From: Octopus vulgaris
Lineage: Eukaryota
DNA length: 64,000 nt
Direction of reading: 5' to 3'
NCBI GenBank assembly: GCA_951406725.2
Contig: OX597833.1
Span: 55,180,001-55,244,000 of the forward strand
In this document: positions 1-57,132 of the stretch, piece by piece
Numbering within the stretch: the stretch's first letter is position 1
How the letters are laid out: every line of letters starts with the position of its first letter
Notes under the pieces: generated by a model
What the model was told of the DNA's origin: nothing
The model's database searches: none
Seen by the model: the letters and a program-made list of their open reading frames with translations, nothing else
Made by a program: the position numbers and the translations under genes

Positions 1-754
1 AGGGGATTAATTTTGGAGTTTTCCTTCACTTAAATTGATTGCTTTCACCACAGCTAAGGGACTCAATCTGTCCTTACAAAAATCTATACCATCCATAGCG
101 GGGACCTTGGCAGGTACAACTGTTCCAGTTCAGAACAGACCTGAGAGTAATGAGAATTAAAGGGTGACCCTATGCCCCCTGCAAATCCAGAACTCTCAAA
201 CTGGACCCTTACTACCAGATGCGGTTAGTTAAATGTCGTATGTAGGACTAATCAACTATAATTTATTATTCAACCCCTCTCCACTCTTAAATAGTAAATT
301 GCAGTTTCTGTAACGATGTTCAAAAATCAGTTTTTAATTCTTAAAGTCCCGTACAAGATATCCACAGTGGTTGCCAAATCTTCAACTGCATGAAACCACT
401 GTTCAAATAGTGTTGTTGTTGTTGTTGTTATTGTTGTTGTTTGGAGGTCAGAACCTGATGCTAAGAATTCTTCCATACTAGAAACAAAGTTTAGTCTTAT
501 TTTAGACAGAACTTCTTATCAAAAGACTTCTTGTTCACCCCATATTTTTTTGTAATCGGTTTCAGCTCAAAGCTGTGGCCATGCTGGGGCACCATCGTTA
601 TATGTTTATTTTTTGCATTTTATCAAGTACGTACTCTGATTTTTCTTGTTTTTTTAAAAATTTAATTATCAAGCTCAATAGTAGTAAATGTCTTAAGTGG
701 TAAGTTAAAAATTGGGTGATTTTGGATATTAATCATTTATTTATTTATCTATTT

Positions 755-1120
755 CGCTTTTGGATTTGGTTTGCAAGATTCTTTATATGAGTTTGTGTGT
801 TGAAGCAATTTTGTTGTGTCTGGGGAGAGTCATTTTCTTTTTGTGCCTTATAATTTAATACACTCACCGGTGAAATTTCCATTTATTTCTTATTTATATT
901 TTCCTAAAATTTTCGTTGCATCTTGCAACCTTTTCAATAGTCAAAACTATTGAAAAGATTGCAAGACACAATGAAAATTTTTGGAAATTAAAAATAAGAA
1001 ATAAGTGGAAATTTAACCGGTGAGTGTGTTAAATTATAAGGCACAAAAATAGTCAAGACTACTGAAAAGGGTTACAAGATGCAACAAAAATTTTAGGAAA
1101 ATAAAAATAAGAAATAAGTG
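755..1120 (-). mobile_element. Penelope-like pseudo-LTR remnant with an inverted copy and a partial tandem copy (family HH-1)
   Basis: 838-942 is the imperfect reverse complement of 945-1049, followed by a further partial copy at 1050-1120. Each copy contains a hammerhead-like motif. Inverted plus tandem pLTR arrangements are typical of Penelope-like elements. Confidence 0.7.
904..940 (-). ncRNA. Minimal type-I hammerhead ribozyme fold, U3:A8 core variant
   Basis: Minus strand reads CUA-UUGAAAA-G-GUUGC-AAGAU-GCAAC-GAAA-AU-UU-UAG: stem I CUA/UAG, core U3UGAAA8A9, 5-bp stem II, GAAA, self-complementary AAUU stem III. Degenerate + strand copies at about 947-983 and 1059-1096. Confidence 0.7.
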
Positions 1121-1439
1121 TTCGTCTATTTGTTTATTAATTAATGATTTACATTAAATAAATAACGTGAGAAATCAGTAACCAAGAATCAATATCTTGT
1201 AAATGCATGTGGGAACACGTGTAATCAATTTCATGTATTCACTCAACCATGGTAGGTGATGGTGACCTGACAATAAGTAACAGAAACTACATTCACAATG
1301 AACACTGATGATTGTTAAATATCACGAGAATTATTAGCATGTCTGACAAACTGCTTCATAGCCTTTCTTTTGGCTCTTGATATCCTCGGTTCAAATCACA
1401 CCAAAGTCAGCTTTGCCTTTCATTTTTTTTTTTTCAGTG

Positions 1440-2227: not shown

Positions 2228-2648
2228 ATGTCCTTGTTTGTCCTCTCTGTGTTTGGCCCCTTGTGGGCAGTAAAGAAATAGGTATTTCGTCTGCCCCTAC
2301 ATTCTGAGTTCAAATTCCACCGAGGTCAACTTTGCTTTCATCCTTTCAGAGGTTGATTAAATAAGTACCAGTTACTCACTGAGGTCGATATTATCAACTT
2401 AATCCGTTTGTCTGTCCTTGTTTGTCCCCTCTATGTGTAGCCCCTTGTGGGTACTAAAGAAATAGGTATTTCGTATGCCTCTATGTTCTGAGTTCTAAGT
2501 CCACCAAGGTCAACTTTGCTTTCATCCTTTCTGAGGTCAATTAAATAAGTACCAGTTACGCACTGGGGTCGATATAATCGACATAATCTGTTTGTCTGTC
2601 CTTGTTTGTCCCCTCTATGTGTTGCCCCTTGTGGGCAGTAAAAGAATT
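2228..2648 (+). mobile_element. SINE family B, head-to-tail multimer (about 2.3 units)
   Basis: About 180-bp units joined at AAAGAAATA|GGTATTTCG. Confidence 0.85.
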
Positions 2649-4186: not shown

Positions 4187-4819
4187 TTTCTCTTTCTCTC
4201 CTTTTCTGTCTATCACTTTCTCCCCCTCTCTCTCTCTCTCTCTGCTTGATTGATTGAACACAAGTTCCCTTCTACTTTGCAGTCATATGGTCAGAAGTAA
4301 GTCTATAAAAACCCTAGTTTGTTCTTGTTCCCATTCCTTCTTCTCAAAAAGCAAAGAATTTTTTTAAAAAATACCATCTTATTAATGGATGGGAAAATAA
4401 ACGTAAGTTGGGGATATGAGAAATTTGAAATAAAAATACCCGTTTTAACCATTTTTTAAACCGTATTTTTGTTGTAAGACACTGCTTTCATTAAAAGTAA
4501 TGAAGAATTTAGCAGTTCAGCAAAATCAACCTTGGCGGAATTTGAACTCAGAACGTAGTGGCAGACGAAATACTGCTAAGCATTTCACCTGGTGTGCCAA
4601 CATTTCTGCCAGCTTGCTGCCTTTGACTTTGGTTTCTGACACCTCAGTGTGGCACAGTGGGCAAATGGTTAAATTCAATGTTCTCAAACTGACCAAAATC
4701 TAATGAAATTTGCTAAACAATAACAGTATAGGAGAGACCAGACCATTTTGGGCTTTTTTTTTTTGTTATTTGACAAACTTAATCTTTTTCCTGCTTCAAC
4801 TTCAGCACCTGGCTTTTAA

Positions 4820-12978: not shown

Positions 12979-13334
12979 CCTTTTAGTGTTTAAACTGGCT
13001 ATATCCGGCCCAAATATTCTACACATTTTATGCTCAAACTGGCCAAAACCAGCATCTCACACCTACTCTGCAATGTCATTCTAAAAATAAGCAATTACAT
13101 CTTTCCTATCTTGAAGCTACAAAATAATATCAGATAATTTTTTTTTAAATGTGAATAGGATTGGGTGTGTGGTAAGTAGCTTGTTTACCAACCACATGGT
13201 TCTGGGTTCAGTCCCACTGCATGGCACCTTGGGGAAGTGTCTTCTACTATAGCCTTGGGCCGACCAAAGCTTTGTGAGTGGATTTGGTAGACAGAAACTG
13301 AACGAAGCCCGTCATATATATGTATATATATATA

Positions 13335-13651: not shown

Positions 13652-14363
13652 TTAAGTCAGTCGAGTGTAATACAGGGCTGACGTTTCTAGCTGGTAGTGA
13701 GACCATGTAGAGGATCTCTCATCTTTAATGAAATGGCGAATGTAGTAGAGAATGAATGATATAGAAAATATATAAAATCAATTGATTACTGTAATGCCAG
13801 TCTGTATGATAGAGAACAGTAAGTGTGAAAGTCATAAGTAAATAATAAACAGAGTTTGTTGTGTGTTAGTTTGCAATCACGATTCTAAAATACACCGCAG
13901 TCGAAGTCACAATTTATTCCTGAGAATTAATTAGCATTTATTTAATTATTCTAGCTTGGAATATTATTAACAACTCTTATGTATTTGTATTTGATGGAAT
14001 ATTCTAGCAAAAGTCTAAGCTTTGCACAAAGTTGTTAATAAATTTTTGATCACTTCATTGTGTCAAAATTTCTTCTCTTCTTCCAGCCCCCCCCCCCTAT
14101 TTTTAGTCTTCTGAGACAAAGACTGGTAAGGGTTTTGAAATGGGTGGTGAGCTCACTGAGCTCTCAGACGCTGGGCCCTCTCCAATGTGGATACAGTGGG
14201 TTATGTGAGGGGTGATATGCTTGCTATGTGTCAGACCTGAACTTACCCATGGAGGATGAATAAAATGAACATTAAAAGGATTTTGATGGTAATGATTCCT
14301 CTGAAGTAGAAGTTAGCTGTAAATAATAAATTCCATGGATTGTGTCTCAAGACCATTACTTGA

Positions 14364-14673
14364 CAATTGCAGCGTGGAAGGTGTTTATAAGCCATTTAAG
14401 AAACACACAAAAGCCGTTCGATTCACTTCAACATTTAAGTTTAATTTGTCAAAATATTTTTGTTGCTTTAAGACGGATTTTTGTCAGTGAACAGGTCGCG
14501 GTCTTAAAGCGACGAAAATATTTTGACAAATTAGACTTAAATGTTGAAGTGAATCGAACGGCTTTTGTGTGTTTCTTAAATGGCTTACAAACACCTTCCA
14601 CGCTGCAATTGTTTTCGTTTCAGCACACAATCTCAGGTCAGGTCACTTGCTATGCAAGTACATCTCCGTAACA
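14364..14673 (+). mobile_element. Non-autonomous Penelope-like element (family HH-2) with a long inverted 5' segment
   Basis: 14364-14474 is the reverse complement of 14501-14611; 9-bp TSD ATTACTTGA (14355-14363 and 14674-14682); second copy at 26860-27067. Confidence 0.8.
14480..14530 (+). ncRNA. Minimal type-I hammerhead ribozyme fold, G3:C8 core variant
   Basis: UUUGUCA-GUGAACA-G-GUCGC-GGUCUUAAA-GCGAC-GAAA-AUAU-UU-UGACAAA: 7-bp stem I, 5-bp stem II, palindromic AAUAUU stem III. Confidence 0.8.
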
Positions 14674-14843
14674 ATTACTTGAGTCATCAGGAAATTAGCA
14701 ATGGAATTCATAGTAATGTACTGGCCTACCTGTACATCGGAGATGATGTAAAATGATGGTACTTGTTTGGTGCGCTATTGGCCTTTATTTACAGAGAGAC
14801 CTGTCGACTTCTCGCAGTTTTGCACTTTACCACATCATCATAC

Positions 14844-15152
14844 TGTGGAGGCACATGGCCTAGTAGTTAGAGCAGCGGACTCGCGGTCGAGGGATCGCTG
14901 GTTCAAATCTCAGACGGAGCGATGTGTGTGTTTATGAGCGAAACACCTAAGCTCCACACAGCTCCGGCAGAAGGTAATGGCAAACCTTCTGCTGACTCTT
15001 TCGCCACAGCTTTCTCTCATTCCTTCCTCGTGCATCTTGCAGCTCACCTGCAACGGACCGGCGTCTCATCCAGGTGGGAAACCTATACGCCAAGAAACCG
15101 GGAAACCGGGCCTTATGAGACCGGTATGGCTCGAGAAGGAACACCAAACCAA
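14844..15152 (+). mobile_element. tRNA-derived SINE, family D'
   Basis: Head GGAGGCACATGGCCTAGTAGTTAGAGCAGCGGACTCGCGGTCG...GGTTCAAATC; 12-bp TSD ACATCATCATAC (14832-14843 and 15153-15164). Confidence 0.9.
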
Positions 15153-15509
15153 ACATCATCATACACGGATTAAGGTTCCTCAGTGGCACTGAAGGTGGAT
15201 ATGAGATCTTTTGGCACAGCTGTTTTTGCACTCCCTATTTGGTGCCACTGATATGACAACGACCTATTGATGTCAGATGCTTTAATGTTTCTTTTGTTAC
15301 CCCTCAATTCAATTCAATTCAATTTTTATTGGCTCAAAAAGCAAAAGCAAGGCCATGTAGGGGGACAAGGAGTTCTGATTTAAAAAAAAAAGAAAAAAAA
15401 TGTTCTGCTTACAATTTATAGATTTCATTTCATCTAACAATTTTACTTGTAATGAACTGCAAGAATGCCCATGTCCCACCCTCTCTGAATGCTTCTAGTA
15501 TTAGTATAT

Positions 15510-26757: not shown

Positions 26758-26859
26758 CTGTATCATTCCTATACTGGGAACTGTGGAGATCAGCTTGGAT
26801 GCCTGCAGCAAACTGTGATAGAGATATCGTGGTTGATTTGCTATAACTACAAACATAGA

Positions 26860-27067
26860 AGCCGTTCGATTCATTTTTGTCAGTGAACAGGTCGCGGTCT
26901 TAAAGCGACGAAAATATTTTGACAATTTAAACTTAAATGTTGAAGTGAATCGAATGGCTTTTGTGTGTTTCTTAAATAGCTTACAAACACCATCCACACT
27001 GCAATTGTTTTCGTTTCAGCACACGATCTCAGATCAAATCACTTGCTATGCAAGTACATCTCCGTAT
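26860..27067 (+). mobile_element. Non-autonomous Penelope-like element, family HH-2 (short inverted 5' segment)
   Basis: Near-identical to 14478-14670; 9-bp TSD AAACATAGA (26851-26859 and 27068-27076); the 5' AGCCGTTCGATTCA is an inverted copy of an internal segment. Confidence 0.82.
26876..26925 (+). ncRNA. Minimal hammerhead fold, G3:C8 variant (second copy)
   Basis: UUGUCA-GUGAACA-G-GUCGC-GGUCUUAAA-GCGAC-GAAA-AUAU-UU-UGACAA; core identical to 14480-14530. Confidence 0.8.
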
Positions 27068-27191
27068 AAACATAGATTCTCTTGTTATTATGGACTCAAT
27101 ATCCTCTTTGTGGTCGCATGTTGTTAGGAGTCTGTGATCATGCTCCTGTATGCAAGTTTAGATGTGCATATTCATGTGTATATGTATGTGT

Positions 27192-27485
27192 GTTGTTGTT
27201 TGTTCCTTCTCAAGCCACGCCTGGCTCATAGGGCCGGTTTCCTTGGCATTTAGGTTCCCCACCTGGACGGGACGCCGGTCCTTCGCAGGTGAGCTGCAAG
27301 ATGCAGGAAGAAAGAGTGAAAGAAGTTGTAGTGAAAGAGTCAGCAGAAGTTTGCCATTACCTTCTGCCAGAGCCGCGTGGAACTTAGGTGTTTCGCTCAT
27401 AAACAGACACATTGCCCGGTCTGAGATTCGAACCTGCGATTCCTTGACCATGAGTCCGCTGCTCTAATCACTAGGCCTCCACACG
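27192..27485 (-). mobile_element. SINE family D'
   Basis: Reverse complement of 14844-15152. Confidence 0.88.
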
Positions 27486-40876: not shown

Positions 40877-41484
40877 GTTTCCTCTATAATTCCTTAAGTC
40901 CTTTGATTTGGCTGTCCCATTCCCTAAGGGCAGCCACTGGGCCATTCATCTCTTATTGCTTTTTAAAGATATGTATTAAGTTATAAGAAAGAGACAGTAC
41001 ATATGGTAATGAAAATAAAATCCACCATAGACAAGTATTATATCTTCTGACCAAAATGCATTTAAATGTTGAAAAAACACAAAAAATGAAATTGTTCAGA
41101 GATTGTAAGTCAGTAGAATGTAATGCATCAAAGCTTTGAAACTTTGTGTTTTGATAGAGGTTTGTGAGTTCAATATTGATTCTCTCTCCTACCTCCCATA
41201 TATATATGTGTATATTATGGAACATTGGATTTTGAAAATCTTTATATAAAGCTGTAAGTAAAAGCATGTAAAATATTGATTTGAAAATTCATCTTTGAGA
41301 TAGAAAAAGTCAGATTCCCATGGGCAGCATTGAACTTTTTCCATCTAAAAGGGTTTCTCATCCCAATATTTACATGCTGTTATTTATAGTTTTATGTGAA
41401 ATCTTTCAAGATTCTATGTTCCAAAAATGAATCGTTTCGCATTTCCCCAAAAGCTTAGAAGATTGTTGTGATGTCAACAGCGTG

Positions 41485-41800
41485 TGTGTGTGTGTGGTAA
41501 GAAGCTTGCTTCCCAACCACATGATTCTGAGTTCAATCCCACTGTGTGGCACCTTAGGCAAGTGTCTTCCACTATAACCTTGGGCTGACCAAAGTTTTAT
41601 GAGTGGATTTGGTAGGCAGGAAGTGAAAGAAGTCCACTGTGTGTGTGTTTACGTCTCCGTAACCTAGCGGTTTGGCAAAAAGAGACCGATAGAATAAGTA
41701 CCAGGCTTACAAAGAATAAGACCTTGGGTCGATTTGGTCGAGTAAAGGCAGTGCTCCAGCATGGCCACAGTCAAATGACTGAAACAAGTAAAAGAGTAAT
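41485..41800 (+). mobile_element. SINE family A with an internal deletion
   Basis: Collinear match lacking part of the middle. Confidence 0.85.
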
Positions 41801-43022: not shown

Positions 43023-43784
43023 CAGAATAAATACCAAGAAAGAAATTCTTAGATAAAACTATAATAGAAAATTTCAATTTAAATGTGGGGGGTTTTAAAA
43101 ATGAGATGTTTTATATCATAGCGCCAAAGGCAGTCCTAGCTGGGTTGGTATCAGCAGGGTTAATTTTTTTTTTTTTATATATATATATATATTTTCTACA
43201 TTCTTTCTAAATTCAAATCTAAGCTTTTCATTTCTCTAGGGGGGTGAGGGTCATTGATATTAAGATCACTGGTCTCAATTTAAGCTAACTATCTACCTCT
43301 TCCTGCAACAAATATTCATGGCCTGTAGCAATGTAAAAAAAAAAGAATGATAAAATGACAAAAAAATCAATATCCATTTGGGTTCTATTAGTGTAGAAAA
43401 TTGGATGTACGGAAAAGTTAAATATAGTGGAAAATTATGATGCATCAATTTCTTACTAGTTTTAATTTATTAAAGCACTTGGATAAGTCGTGTAAAGATA
43501 CGATGTGTTGCTTTCTTCCAATGTACTGTCTGTGCTCTCAACTGTGGTGAATGTCTGTGTGTATGTACATGTGTGTGTGCGTGTGTGTGAAATTTATCCT
43601 CAAACATTCTTTTTTGTATAATGTTATTTTATATGGAAAGTACTCTTCGTCTCTTGTTTTGCATACTCTGACGCACGCGTACCAATTCACCCACTCTCGT
43701 AATCACAGTCTACGATATAAGCACAAAATTAAACACACACATACACATACTCATTTGGTGCACATATATATATAAACATGTAGT

Positions 43785-44706
43785 GGAGGCGCAATGGCCC
43801 AGTGGTTAGGGCAGCGGACTCGCAGTCGTAGGATCGCGGTTTCGATTCCCAGACTGGGCGTTGTGTGTGTTTATTGAGCGAAAACACCTAAAAGCTCCAC
43901 GAGGCTCCGGCAGGGGGTGGTGATCCCTGCTGTACTCTTTCACCACTTTTTCTATCTTCTGTTGGCCTGCACATATATAAACATGTAGTCGAGGCACAAT
44001 GGCCCAGTGGTTAGAGCAGCGGACTCGCAGTCATAGGCTCGCGGTTTCGATTCCCAGACTGGGCGTTGTGTGTGTGTTTATTGAGCGAAAACACCTAAAA
44101 GCTCCATGAGGCTCCAGCAGTGGGGGGGGGGGTGATCCCTGCTGTACTCCTTCACCACTCTTTCTATCTCCTGTTGGCCTGCACATATATAAACATGTAG
44201 TGGAGGCACAATGGCCCAGTGGTTAGAGCAGCGGACTCGCAGTCGTAGGATCGCGGTTTCGATTCCCAGACCGAGCGTTGTGTGTGTGTTTATTGAGTGA
44301 AAACACCTAAAAGCTCCACGAGGCTCTGGCAGGGGGTGGTGATCCCTGCTGTACTCTTTCATCACTCTTTCTATCTTCTGTTGGCCTGCACATATATAAA
44401 CATGTAGTGGAGGCACAGTGGCCCAGTGGTTAGAGCAGTGGACTTGCAGTCGTAGGATCGCGGTTTCGATTCCCAGACCGTGCATTGTGTGTGTGTTTAT
44501 TGAGCGAAAACGCCTAAAAGCTCAACGAGGCTCCGGCAGGGGGTGGTGATCCCTGCTGTACTCTTTCACCACTCTTTCTCCCACTCTTTCTTCTGTTGGC
44601 CTGCTCGCTTAGCCAGCGGGGTGGCGTCGTTCGAAGGCTAAAATAATACGAACGCATTGTGACCAGCGATGTGTAGCAACATCTGATGGTCTGCTCGGTC
44701 ACGTGA
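43785..44706 (+). mobile_element. tRNA-derived SINE family D with its 5' part in four tandem copies
   Basis: Four heads GGAGGCGCAATGGCCCAGTGGTTAG.GCAGCGGACTCGCAGTCGTAGGATCGCGGTTTCGATTCCC about 200-210 bp apart; only the last has the 3' tail; ATATAAACATGTA direct repeat flanks. Confidence 0.92.
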
Positions 44707-54513: not shown

Positions 54514-54826
54514 TCACCGTCACCGTCACTGACCAGGCTATCAGATGTTGCTACACATCGCTGGTCACAATGCGCTTCGCATTGTTTTTGGCCTTCAAAT
54601 GACGCCACCCCGCTGGCTAAGCGAGCAGGCCAACAGAAGAAAGAGTGAGAGAAAGTTGTGGCGAAAGAGTACAGCAGGGATCGCCACAACCCCCTGCCAG
54701 AGCCTTGTGGTGCTTTTTAGGTGTTTTCACTCAATAAACACTCACAACGCCCGGTCTGGGAATCGAAACTGCAATCCTACGACCGCGAGTCCGCTGCCCT
54801 AACCACTGGGCCATTGCACCCCCACG
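54514..54826 (-). mobile_element. SINE family D, full length
   Basis: Reverse complement of about 44409-44706; flanked by ATATAAATAT direct repeats. Confidence 0.9.
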
Positions 54827-56464: not shown

Positions 56465-57132
56465 GTTTTTCTACTCGTTTCAGTCATTGAACTCTGGCCA
56501 TGCTGGGGCACCGCTTTGAAGGGTTTAGTCAAACAAATCAACCCCAGTATTTATTTATTTTTTTGAACTGGTGCTTTTTCTATCAGACTCTTTTGCTGAA
56601 CTGTTAAGTTACAGGGATGTAAATAAACCAGTACGAGTCGTTAAGTGGCGATGGGAGACAAACACATATACAAACTTAGGGCTTCTTTCAGTTTCCATCT
56701 ACCGAATTCACTCACAAGGTTTTGGTTGACCTGTGGCTGTAGTAGAAGACATGTGCTCAAGGTGTCATGCAGTGGGACTGAATGACAGGTTCAGTCCCAC
56801 TGCGTGGCACCTTGGGGCAAGTATCTTCTACTTTAGCCTCGGGCCGACCAAAGCCTTCTGAGTGGATTTGGTAGACGGAAACTGAAAGAATCCCGTCGTA
56901 TATATATGTATACGTATATATATATGTGTTTGTGTGTCTGTGTTTGTCCCCCCAACATTGCTTGACAACCGATGCTGGTGTGTTTACGTCCCCATAACTT
57001 AGCGGTTCGGCAAAATAGACCGATAGAATAAGTATTAGGCTTACAAAGAATAATTCCTGGGGTCTATTTGCTCGACTAAAGGCGGTGCTCTAGCATGGCT
57101 GCAGTCAAATGACTGAAACAAGTAAAAGAGTA
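56465..57132. mobile_element. Head-to-head fused pair of SINE A copies
   Basis: Minus copy at about 56465-56782 and plus copy at about 56789-57132; junction GCAGTGGGACTGAA-TGACAGG-TTCAGTCCCACTGC. Confidence 0.9.

What the first reader, a model, noticed from the sequence alone, without database searches (positions are those of the whole stretch)
755..1120. U3:A8 hammerhead present three times in an inverted-plus-tandem cassette
Seen: the intact copy (minus strand, 904-940) is CUA UUGAAAA G GUUGC aagau GCAAC GAAA AU UU UAG. Two decayed copies lie on the + strand, one forming a hairpin with arms of about 105 bp and one in tandem about 112 bp further on. Inference: the tandem pair is the arrangement needed for dimeric cleavage through AAUU, and U3:A8 is the compensatory alternative to C3:G8. 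Stem I is only 3 bp, so a monomer is probably inactive.
Basis: partly seen in the sequence, partly recalled or inferred. Interest (0 to 1): 0.7.

Follow-up and report, generated by a model that had tools for sequence, protein, structure and literature searches.

The report
Octopus Penelope-type insert with hammerhead relics
This is a decayed jumping-gene insertion in an octopus genome carrying a known minimal self-cutting RNA motif, ordinary in itself, but a related repeat nearby carries a swapped core base pair that I did not find reported from nature.

Summary
The motif and repeat geometry are real, but only copy 1 (minus, 940-904) is an intact U3:A8 minimal type I hammerhead. Copy 2 has broken helices I and II; copy 3 has C3:A8 and lacks G12. 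The cassette is one 370-bp insertion (755-1124) with a 7-bp target-site duplication. It has two direct repeats, an inverted copy with a one-sided tail and a palindromic junction: the standard Penelope-like element (PLE) pseudo-LTR layout, with no ORF. The host is an octopus. U3:A8 minimal hammerheads, the extra base after A9 and opposite-strand pairs were described in PLEs in 2014. The tandem pair here cannot be a working dimer, and read-through RNA buries copy 1 in a 104-bp hairpin. New lead: a homologous ~195-bp family at 14364-14673 and 26860-27067, each with a 9-bp duplication, carries intact G3:C8 hammerheads with compensatory changes against the U3:A8 family. Five literature searches found no natural G3:C8, but the key 2017 survey was unavailable. 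Verdict: new member of a known kind; interest 0.3.

The parts
748..754 (.). Left target-site duplication (7 bp), in a degenerate (ATTT)n tract
   Evidence: control 3.4% of 3000 random boundary pairs at +-5 nt
755..837 (-). One-sided 3' extension ('tail', about 83 nt) of copy 1; AC-rich; homologous to the 3' part of the G3:C8 family
755..951 (-). Copy 1: longest unit, inverted pLTR-like copy
904..940 (-). Intact U3:A8 minimal type I hammerhead; predicted cut between 907 and 906 after UUU
936..951 (.). 16-bp imperfect palindrome shared by copies 1 and 2 (hairpin tip), repeated at the start of copy 3 (1048-1063)
   Evidence: 12 of 16 positions self-complementary in each
936..1047 (+). Copy 2: 112-bp direct unit; hammerhead 947-983 keeps U3:A8 and G12 but has A10.1-U11.1 and mismatches in helices I and II
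1048..1120 (+). Copy 3: 3'-truncated tandem unit; hammerhead 1059-1096 with C3:A8 mismatch and G12 lost
1121..1124 (.). 4 extra bases between copy 3 and the right duplication; origin unexplained
1125..1131 (.). Right target-site duplication
14364..14673 (+). Sister family, insertion a: inverted 5'-truncated arm (14476 to 14364), forward unit 14477-14670 with 58-nt one-sided tail; 9-bp duplication at 14355-14363 and 14674-14682
14480..14530 (+). Intact G3:C8 minimal hammerhead (G3 14487, C8 14492): 7-bp helix I, 5-bp helix II, AAUAUU palindrome
26860..27067 (+). Sister family, insertion b: 13-nt inverted stub (26860-26872) plus unit 26873-27066 (184 of 194 identical to a); 9-bp duplication at 26851-26859 and 27068-27076
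26877..26925 (+). Second intact G3:C8 minimal hammerhead (G3 at 26883), 6-bp helix I

Best explanation
755-1124 is a single old insertion made by Penelope-like element (PLE) machinery and consists only of pseudo-LTR-type sequence. SHOWN: one insertion with a target-site duplication; two direct units plus an inverted unit joined head-to-head at a palindrome; a tail on one end only; a minimal type I hammerhead at the 5' end of each unit; no RT or GIY-YIG coding sequence found in the window; every copy keeps both sides of the cut site, so the template RNA was uncut or religated; the copies are decaying and only one core is intact. INFERRED from published PLE biology: a PLE RT-endonuclease acting in trans nicked AT-rich DNA with a 7-nt stagger and began reverse transcription at internal sites downstream of the hammerhead (giving ends of different length). 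It produced the inverted junction by self-priming at the palindrome or by joining two cDNAs. In the master element the hammerhead was under selection and cut slowly, as a dimer through AAUU and probably with protein help; U3:A8 simply keeps the 3:8 core pair. At this locus it is a relic. Whether the source was a dedicated non-autonomous family or the pLTR of an autonomous PLE is open.
For: Layout matches Adineta Pen2a/Pen3a: two direct pLTRs, an adjacent inverted pLTR overlapping by 15 bp (16 here), 8-10-bp TSD, one-sided tail, 5' palindrome (PMC3846280 passages). All 3 insertions have junction-adjacent duplications of 7, 9 and 9 bp; random boundary pairs reach these lengths in 3.4%, 1.6% and 1.6% of 3000. 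The hammerhead matches PLE minimal motifs: the S. mansoni family 4 example has the same UUGAAAA core, a 3-bp helix I and U17; the Crassostrea gigas PLE example has the same AAUU-U junction. The sister family is homologous over about 185 nt (0 of 1000 shuffles for each of 2 copies; downstream of the hammerhead alone 0 and 1 of 1000; nhmmer E 3e-4 and 5e-4). It differs by four double-sided changes (3:8, two in helix I, one in helix II), with 0 broken among the 9 comparable pairs. Decay: 8-12 differences per 72 nt between copies, and 5 of 6 inferred CpG sites mutated. Read-through RNA gives helix II probability 0.000 on both strands. Octopus genomes carry PLEs (PMC13282606); a window repeat matches Octopus vulgaris predicted proteins (4 of 7 hits, best 82%).
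Against: No autonomous partner was found: no RT or GIY-YIG among 87 of 90 filtered frames plus one extra frame scanned (86+1), and protein searches with the elements' open frames found nothing relevant. The tails (83 and 58 nt) are longer than the 30-40 bp reported. The 3'-truncated third copy at the outer end is not the textbook ending. The 7-bp duplication lies in simple AT-rich sequence, rises to 6.6% chance at +-8 nt, and its left boundary was only roughly fixed by homology. Within the three copies there is no covariation signal (160 of 500 shuffles). The sister family was found with a descriptor that demands paired helices, so only its 3:8 pair and downstream homology are independent. No activity was measured, and no copies outside this window could be examined.
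Confidence: 0.85

Rival explanations
1. One reading: the 112-bp tandem is a retrozyme-like unit whose two hammerheads cut as a cis dimer and release a 112-nt (circular) RNA, at this locus or in the source element.
For: Spacing is exactly 112 nt and copy 3 restarts at the same palindrome as copy 2, as a head-to-tail template would give. Animal retrozymes are proposed pLTR derivatives (10.64898/2026.07.22.740005).
Against: Only 1.65 units. Both cores are damaged and the dimer fold lies 30 kcal/mol above the MFE. Neither of the 2 sister insertions has a tandem unit. Described retrozyme circles are about 170-400 nt with canonical hammerheads (PMC7229834). Partial tandems are routine in PLEs.
Confidence: 0.08
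2. A foldback or MITE-type DNA transposon whose likeness to a hammerhead is chance.
For: Long inverted arms, short TSD, no ORF. Rfam hammerhead models do not hit.
Against: Arms are asymmetric and differ per insertion (104, 112 and 13 nt) while 5' starts are fixed, and TSD length varies. Motif chance is 0 of 200 shuffles. There are compensatory changes between families. The published minimal motifs also needed a custom descriptor.
Confidence: 0.04
3. The host keeps the locus as a long double-stranded hairpin (editing or small-RNA substrate).
For: 104-bp, 90% paired hairpin, MFE -138 to -154 kcal/mol for the cassette.
Against: The hairpin is a by-product of the insertion mechanism, and the arms have diverged at 10 of 104 sites. 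No evidence of transcription or a host gene.
Confidence: 0.03

Closest known systems
Minimal hammerheads (min-HHR) of metazoan PLE pLTRs, including the U3-A8 variant of Schistosoma Cercyon (Cervera and de la Pena 2014, PMC4209133)
   Same: Type I, loop-less palindromic helix III, extra base between 9 and 10.1, G10.1-C11.1, short helix I, U3-A8 core (about 1,300 hits in S. mansoni), U17 sites, opposite-strand pairs close together.
   Different: Host is an octopus, absent from the species alignment read. The extra base is G (consensus H; G occurs in the Nasonia example). The sister family has G3:C8 and a 6-nt palindrome, both outside the published descriptor.
Adineta vaga Penelope Pen2a/Pen3a insertions and solo pLTRs (Arkhipova et al. 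2013, PMC3846280)
   Same: Two direct plus one inverted pLTR, overlap at a 5' palindrome, 8-10-bp TSD, one-sided tail, pLTRs sufficient for mobilisation in trans.
   Different: Nothing lies between the direct repeats here; the unit is 112 bp against 181-218; the tail is longer; the outer direct copy is 3'-truncated.
Poseidon PLE of Anolis (Frangieh et al. 2024, PMC11167929)
   Same: Hammerhead near the pLTR/ORF junction, uncut RNA as template, internal RT starts in an AC-rich stretch that define the tail, AT-rich (ATT) targets.
   Different: That element is autonomous with C3:G8; its G3:C8 form is an engineered partial-rescue mutant. Here no ORF was found.
Non-LTR retrozymes (PMC7229834; 10.64898/2026.07.22.740005)
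   Same: ORF-less, type I hammerhead per unit, PLE-linked.
   Different: They are tandem arrays with at least two complete hammerheads, mostly canonical, giving 170-400-nt circles. Here there is no intact tandem pair, and the motif is minimal.

Membership tests
PLE minimal hammerhead (min-HHR) | Type I order with core CUGANGA or the U3-A8 variant, helix II, GAAA-NN-UH, helix I of 3 bp or more | tested here: met
   Copy 1 only, 1 of 3 copies
PLE minimal hammerhead (min-HHR) | Extra nucleotide between 9 and 10.1; G10.1-C11.1; palindromic 15.2-16.2 | tested here: met
   Copy 1 and both sister copies; copy 2 has A-U at 10.1-11.1 (features)
PLE minimal hammerhead (min-HHR) | Family-level covariation | tested here: inconclusive
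   None within the 3 copies (160 of 500 shuffles); four double-sided changes against the sister family, only two families compared
PLE minimal hammerhead (min-HHR) | Self-cleavage as a dimer | not testable with these tools
   Secondary-structure energies only
Autonomous Penelope-like element | ORF with RT and GIY-YIG endonuclease | tested here: not met
   No such Pfam hit in 87 frames. Not filed as an autonomous PLE
PLE-mobilised pLTR-only insertion | Direct plus adjacent inverted pLTR, head-to-head at a palindrome | tested here: met
PLE-mobilised pLTR-only insertion | Short variable TSD around the whole unit | tested here: met
   7, 9 and 9 bp at 3 of 3 insertions
PLE-mobilised pLTR-only insertion | Tail on one end only (30-40 bp reported) | tested here: inconclusive
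   One-sided extensions are present but measure 83 and 58 nt
PLE-mobilised pLTR-only insertion | Sequence homology to the pLTR of an identified PLE | not testable with these tools
   No eukaryotic genome or repeat library is offered; prokaryotic scans found nothing
Non-LTR retrozyme | At least two consecutive tandem units with complete hammerheads | tested here: not met
   0 of 2 tandem copies complete (criterion)
Non-LTR retrozyme | Circular RNA expression | not testable with these tools
   No RNA data
Rfam hammerhead families | Covariance-model match | tested here: not met

The most novel reading that the evidence does not exclude
Octopus genomes hold abundant ORF-less ~195-bp PLE-mobilised elements (3 insertions in this 64 kb) whose sister families have each swapped the hammerhead 3:8 pair. 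One went to U3:A8 and the other to G3:C8, a pair known to me only as an engineered partial-rescue mutant and invisible to published descriptors. G3:C8 would then be the family consensus, catalytically active and unreported from nature: a natural test of whether the 3:8 pair or the identity of G8 is what selection keeps.
Probability: 0.4. Interest if true: 0.5.

Novelty: new member of a known kind. Interest (0 to 1): 0.3.

Why it matters
The finding as written is an ordinary decayed PLE-type insertion with a hammerhead variant published in 2011 and 2014. Its value is a new host record (the octopus + hammerhead search, listed no report of one) and the sister family. If G3:C8 is a working natural core, the searches that define ribozyme inventories are missing whole families. 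Two homologous families with different 3:8 pairs would also make the unresolved role of hammerheads in PLE transposition easier to test, because the core has stayed paired through about 40% sequence divergence (rough reading of the alignments).

Tried and rejected
Rfam: whole window and two 81-nt stretches, no hammerhead; the microRNA hits are microsatellite or hairpin noise below gathering scores. More copies of the U3:A8 family in the window: none beyond the three. Weak nhmmer hits at 41455 (E 0.11) and 13108 (E 0.053) were dropped because a reversed-window control reached E 0.02. A relaxed core scan gave one more site (63317) with only a 2-bp helix I, dropped. Coding role: the 65-codon open frame of the sister family has 6 nonsynonymous and 4 synonymous differences between copies and no longer homologue. 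Its single hit among 1.84 billion proteins is a bacterial repeat protein scoring by 27 weak stretches, rejected. The 49-codon antisense frame of copy 1 had no hit. Pfam: 2 of 87 frames had sub-cutoff hits, ignored; 4 low-value frames of the 90 listed were not sent. The protein atlas gave no usable hit for the host test. Exact-pattern scans of prokaryotic genomes gave 0 hits for each family. Metagenome and viral contig collections stayed unchecked. Trans-homodimer energies (copy 1: -8.6 against -14.6 for open monomers; sister a: -27.0 against -26.4) omit tertiary contacts and are not used as evidence of activity. Two relevant papers were not held.

Full report
OBSERVATION. It is a type I minimal hammerhead: 3-bp helix I, core with U3 (937) and A8 (932), one extra G, 5-bp helix II (a sixth A-U pair has probability 0.66), GAAA, and AAUU with no loop for helix III. 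The predicted cut follows U17 (907). A descriptor of this kind finds it once in the window and in 0 of 200 shuffled windows. The arms 838-941 and 946-1049 are 90% complementary, and copy 3 starts 112 nt after copy 2. But U3:A8 is in 2 of 3 copies, and only 1 of 3 is intact. Copy 2 has A10.1-U11.1 plus mismatches in helices I and II; copy 3 has C3:A8 and has lost G12. G12 is the general base and its mutation lowers the rate (PMC8495972 passage; PMC6155905 passage).

ANATOMY. The three copies form one insertion, 755-1124, between 7-bp direct repeats in an (ATTT)n-like tract. Copy 1 runs leftwards from 951 to 755 and is about 83 nt longer than its partner arm. Copy 2 is 936-1047 and copy 3 is 1048-1120. 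Copies 1 and 2 share a 16-bp imperfect palindrome, which recurs at the start of copy 3. Copies differ at 8-12 of 72 positions. Four of the 15 variable columns fall on two inferred CpG sites, mutated in 5 of 6 instances (ancestral CpG is my inference). This looks like neutral decay, and the three copies show no covariation beyond chance. No RT, endonuclease or other Pfam domain above cutoff was found in 87 frames. The window is about 46% multi-copy, and one of its repeats matches Octopus vulgaris predicted proteins (4 of 7 hits, best 82%). The host is therefore Octopus or a close relative; the species is not determined.

A SISTER FAMILY. Allowing any base at 3 and 8, the descriptor found two more motifs, at 14487 and 26883 (3 observed; 5 of 200 shuffles gave any). 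Both have G3:C8, intact G12, the extra G, 6-7-bp helix I, 5-bp helix II and a 6-nt AAUAUU palindrome. They fold into helices I and II (helix II probabilities 0.95 or more; helix I 0.70-1.0 in copy a but only 0.34-0.50 in copy b). They head ~195-bp units, 184 of 194 identical and starting at the same base. Each insertion has a 9-bp duplication and an inverted 5' piece: a 112-nt arm in one, a 13-nt stub in the other. Random boundary pairs give such duplications in 1.6% (9 bp) and 3.4% (7 bp) of 3000 trials. These units are homologous to copy 1 along its length, including downstream of the hammerhead (0 and 1 of 1000 shuffles; nhmmer E 3e-4 and 5e-4). Of 9 comparable pairs (3:8, three in helix I, five in helix II), four changed on both sides and none broke. 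The descriptor demanded paired helices, so the independent evidence is the 3:8 pair and the downstream homology. G3:C8 needs two transversions from C3:G8 and is in both copies, so it predates them (inference).

HOW IT WORKS. The layout is that of Penelope-like element insertions: direct pLTRs, an adjacent inverted pLTR overlapping at a 5' palindrome, an 8-10-bp TSD and a one-sided tail. pLTRs alone suffice for mobilisation in trans (PMC3846280). In the Anolis PLE the protein nicks and extends both strands of AT-rich DNA, starts reverse transcription at internal AC-rich sites that define the tail, and uses uncut RNA; its hammerhead cuts only with protein present (PMC11167929). Here every copy keeps both sides of the cut site, the ends fall at different distances downstream of the hammerhead, and the best-conserved downstream block between families is AC-rich. 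I infer insertion by a PLE enzyme from an uncut template, with the inverted junction made at the palindrome. The hammerhead was selected in the master element and most likely cut slowly as a dimer. At this locus it is a relic: the tandem dimer scores 30 kcal/mol above the MFE, and read-through RNA on either strand gives helix II probability 0.000 because of the long hairpin. Even a 196-nt transcript starting at the tip was predicted to misfold helix II. Confidence 0.85. The open point is non-autonomous family versus pLTR of an autonomous element.

AGAINST. No autonomous partner or outside copy could be found with these tools. The tails are longer than reported. The third copy is truncated at its outer end. 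The 7-bp duplication alone is weak. Activity is untested.

KNOWN AND NEW. U3-A8 in nature: PMC3088659 (section 8) and PMC4209133, which reports about 1,300 in Schistosoma, the extra base, the palindrome and opposite-strand pairs 100-700 bp apart. Its alignment includes a schistosome motif with the same core and an oyster motif with the same AAUU-U junction. So copy 1 is a member of the min-HHR class on every sequence feature tested. The cassette works like a PLE insertion but is not filed as an autonomous PLE or as a retrozyme, because a defining feature failed in each. For natural G3:C8, searches returned only engineered mutants or unrelated papers, and the 2014 descriptor excludes it. Lunse et al. 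2017 and Arkhipova et al. 2017 were not held (titles seen only in reference lists) and may report it. The octopus + hammerhead search listed 4 of 5 papers, none reporting such a motif by title or abstract start.

WHAT I READ. PMC4209133: parts 1-2 of 4 and the whole supplementary PDF as text. PMC11167929: parts 1-2 of 4. PMC3088659: section 8 and passages; supplements not read. PMC13282606: part 1 of 3 and passages; supplement listed, not read. 10.64898/2026.07.22.740005: part 1 of 5 and passages; its supplements were closed and could list octopus or variant cores. Passages only: PMC3846280, 10.1101/2021.04.23.441226, PMC7229834, PMC6765202, PMC8495972, PMC3884650, PMC6155905. Hammerhead numbering, the splice-donor consensus and the general MITE properties are recalled.

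VERDICT. Observation partly confirmed; interpretation partly supported. New member of a known kind; interest 0.3, nearly all of it from the G3:C8 sister family.

Noticed in passing
window 14364-14673 and 26860-27067: Homologous family with intact G3:C8 minimal hammerheads, 9-bp target duplications and inverted 5' pieces.
   Followed up: yes
window 868 (minus) and 1019 (plus): A splice-donor-like GGTGAGT lies about 35 nt downstream of the hammerhead in copies 1 and 2. PLE pLTRs can hold introns, but the site is not kept in the sister family.
   Followed up: partly
window 14474-14668 and 26837-27124 (+): One frame is open across the whole sister unit in both copies, without a start codon; no homologue and no sign of coding constraint.
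   Followed up: yes
window 14477-14486 and 26873-26882: Both sister copies start at the same base with a pyrimidine run ending in CAG at the hammerhead, resembling a splice acceptor. In D. virilis Penelope the intron ends at helix I.
   Followed up: no
window 899-945 (minus): Helix I of copy 1 can extend through tandem GA mismatches plus three U-A pairs; this depends on reading the hairpin tip from the minus strand.
   Followed up: partly
window 2229-2647, 1925-2109, 4519-4573 and many others: Abundant SINE-like repeats, including a 184-bp tandem array; about 46% of the window is multi-copy.
   Followed up: no
window 56469-57127: A third self-palindromic region (67% identity), apparently two opposed copies of a common repeat; no hammerhead motif.
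   Followed up: partly
window 43783-44593: Tandem copies, about 200 bp apart, of a repeat also found at 14845-15166, 27176-27477 and 54636-54814, next to both G3:C8 insertions.
   Followed up: no
window 13108-13220 and 41455-41495: Weak nhmmer matches to the hammerhead families (E 0.05-0.1), not above the reversed-window control.
   Followed up: partly
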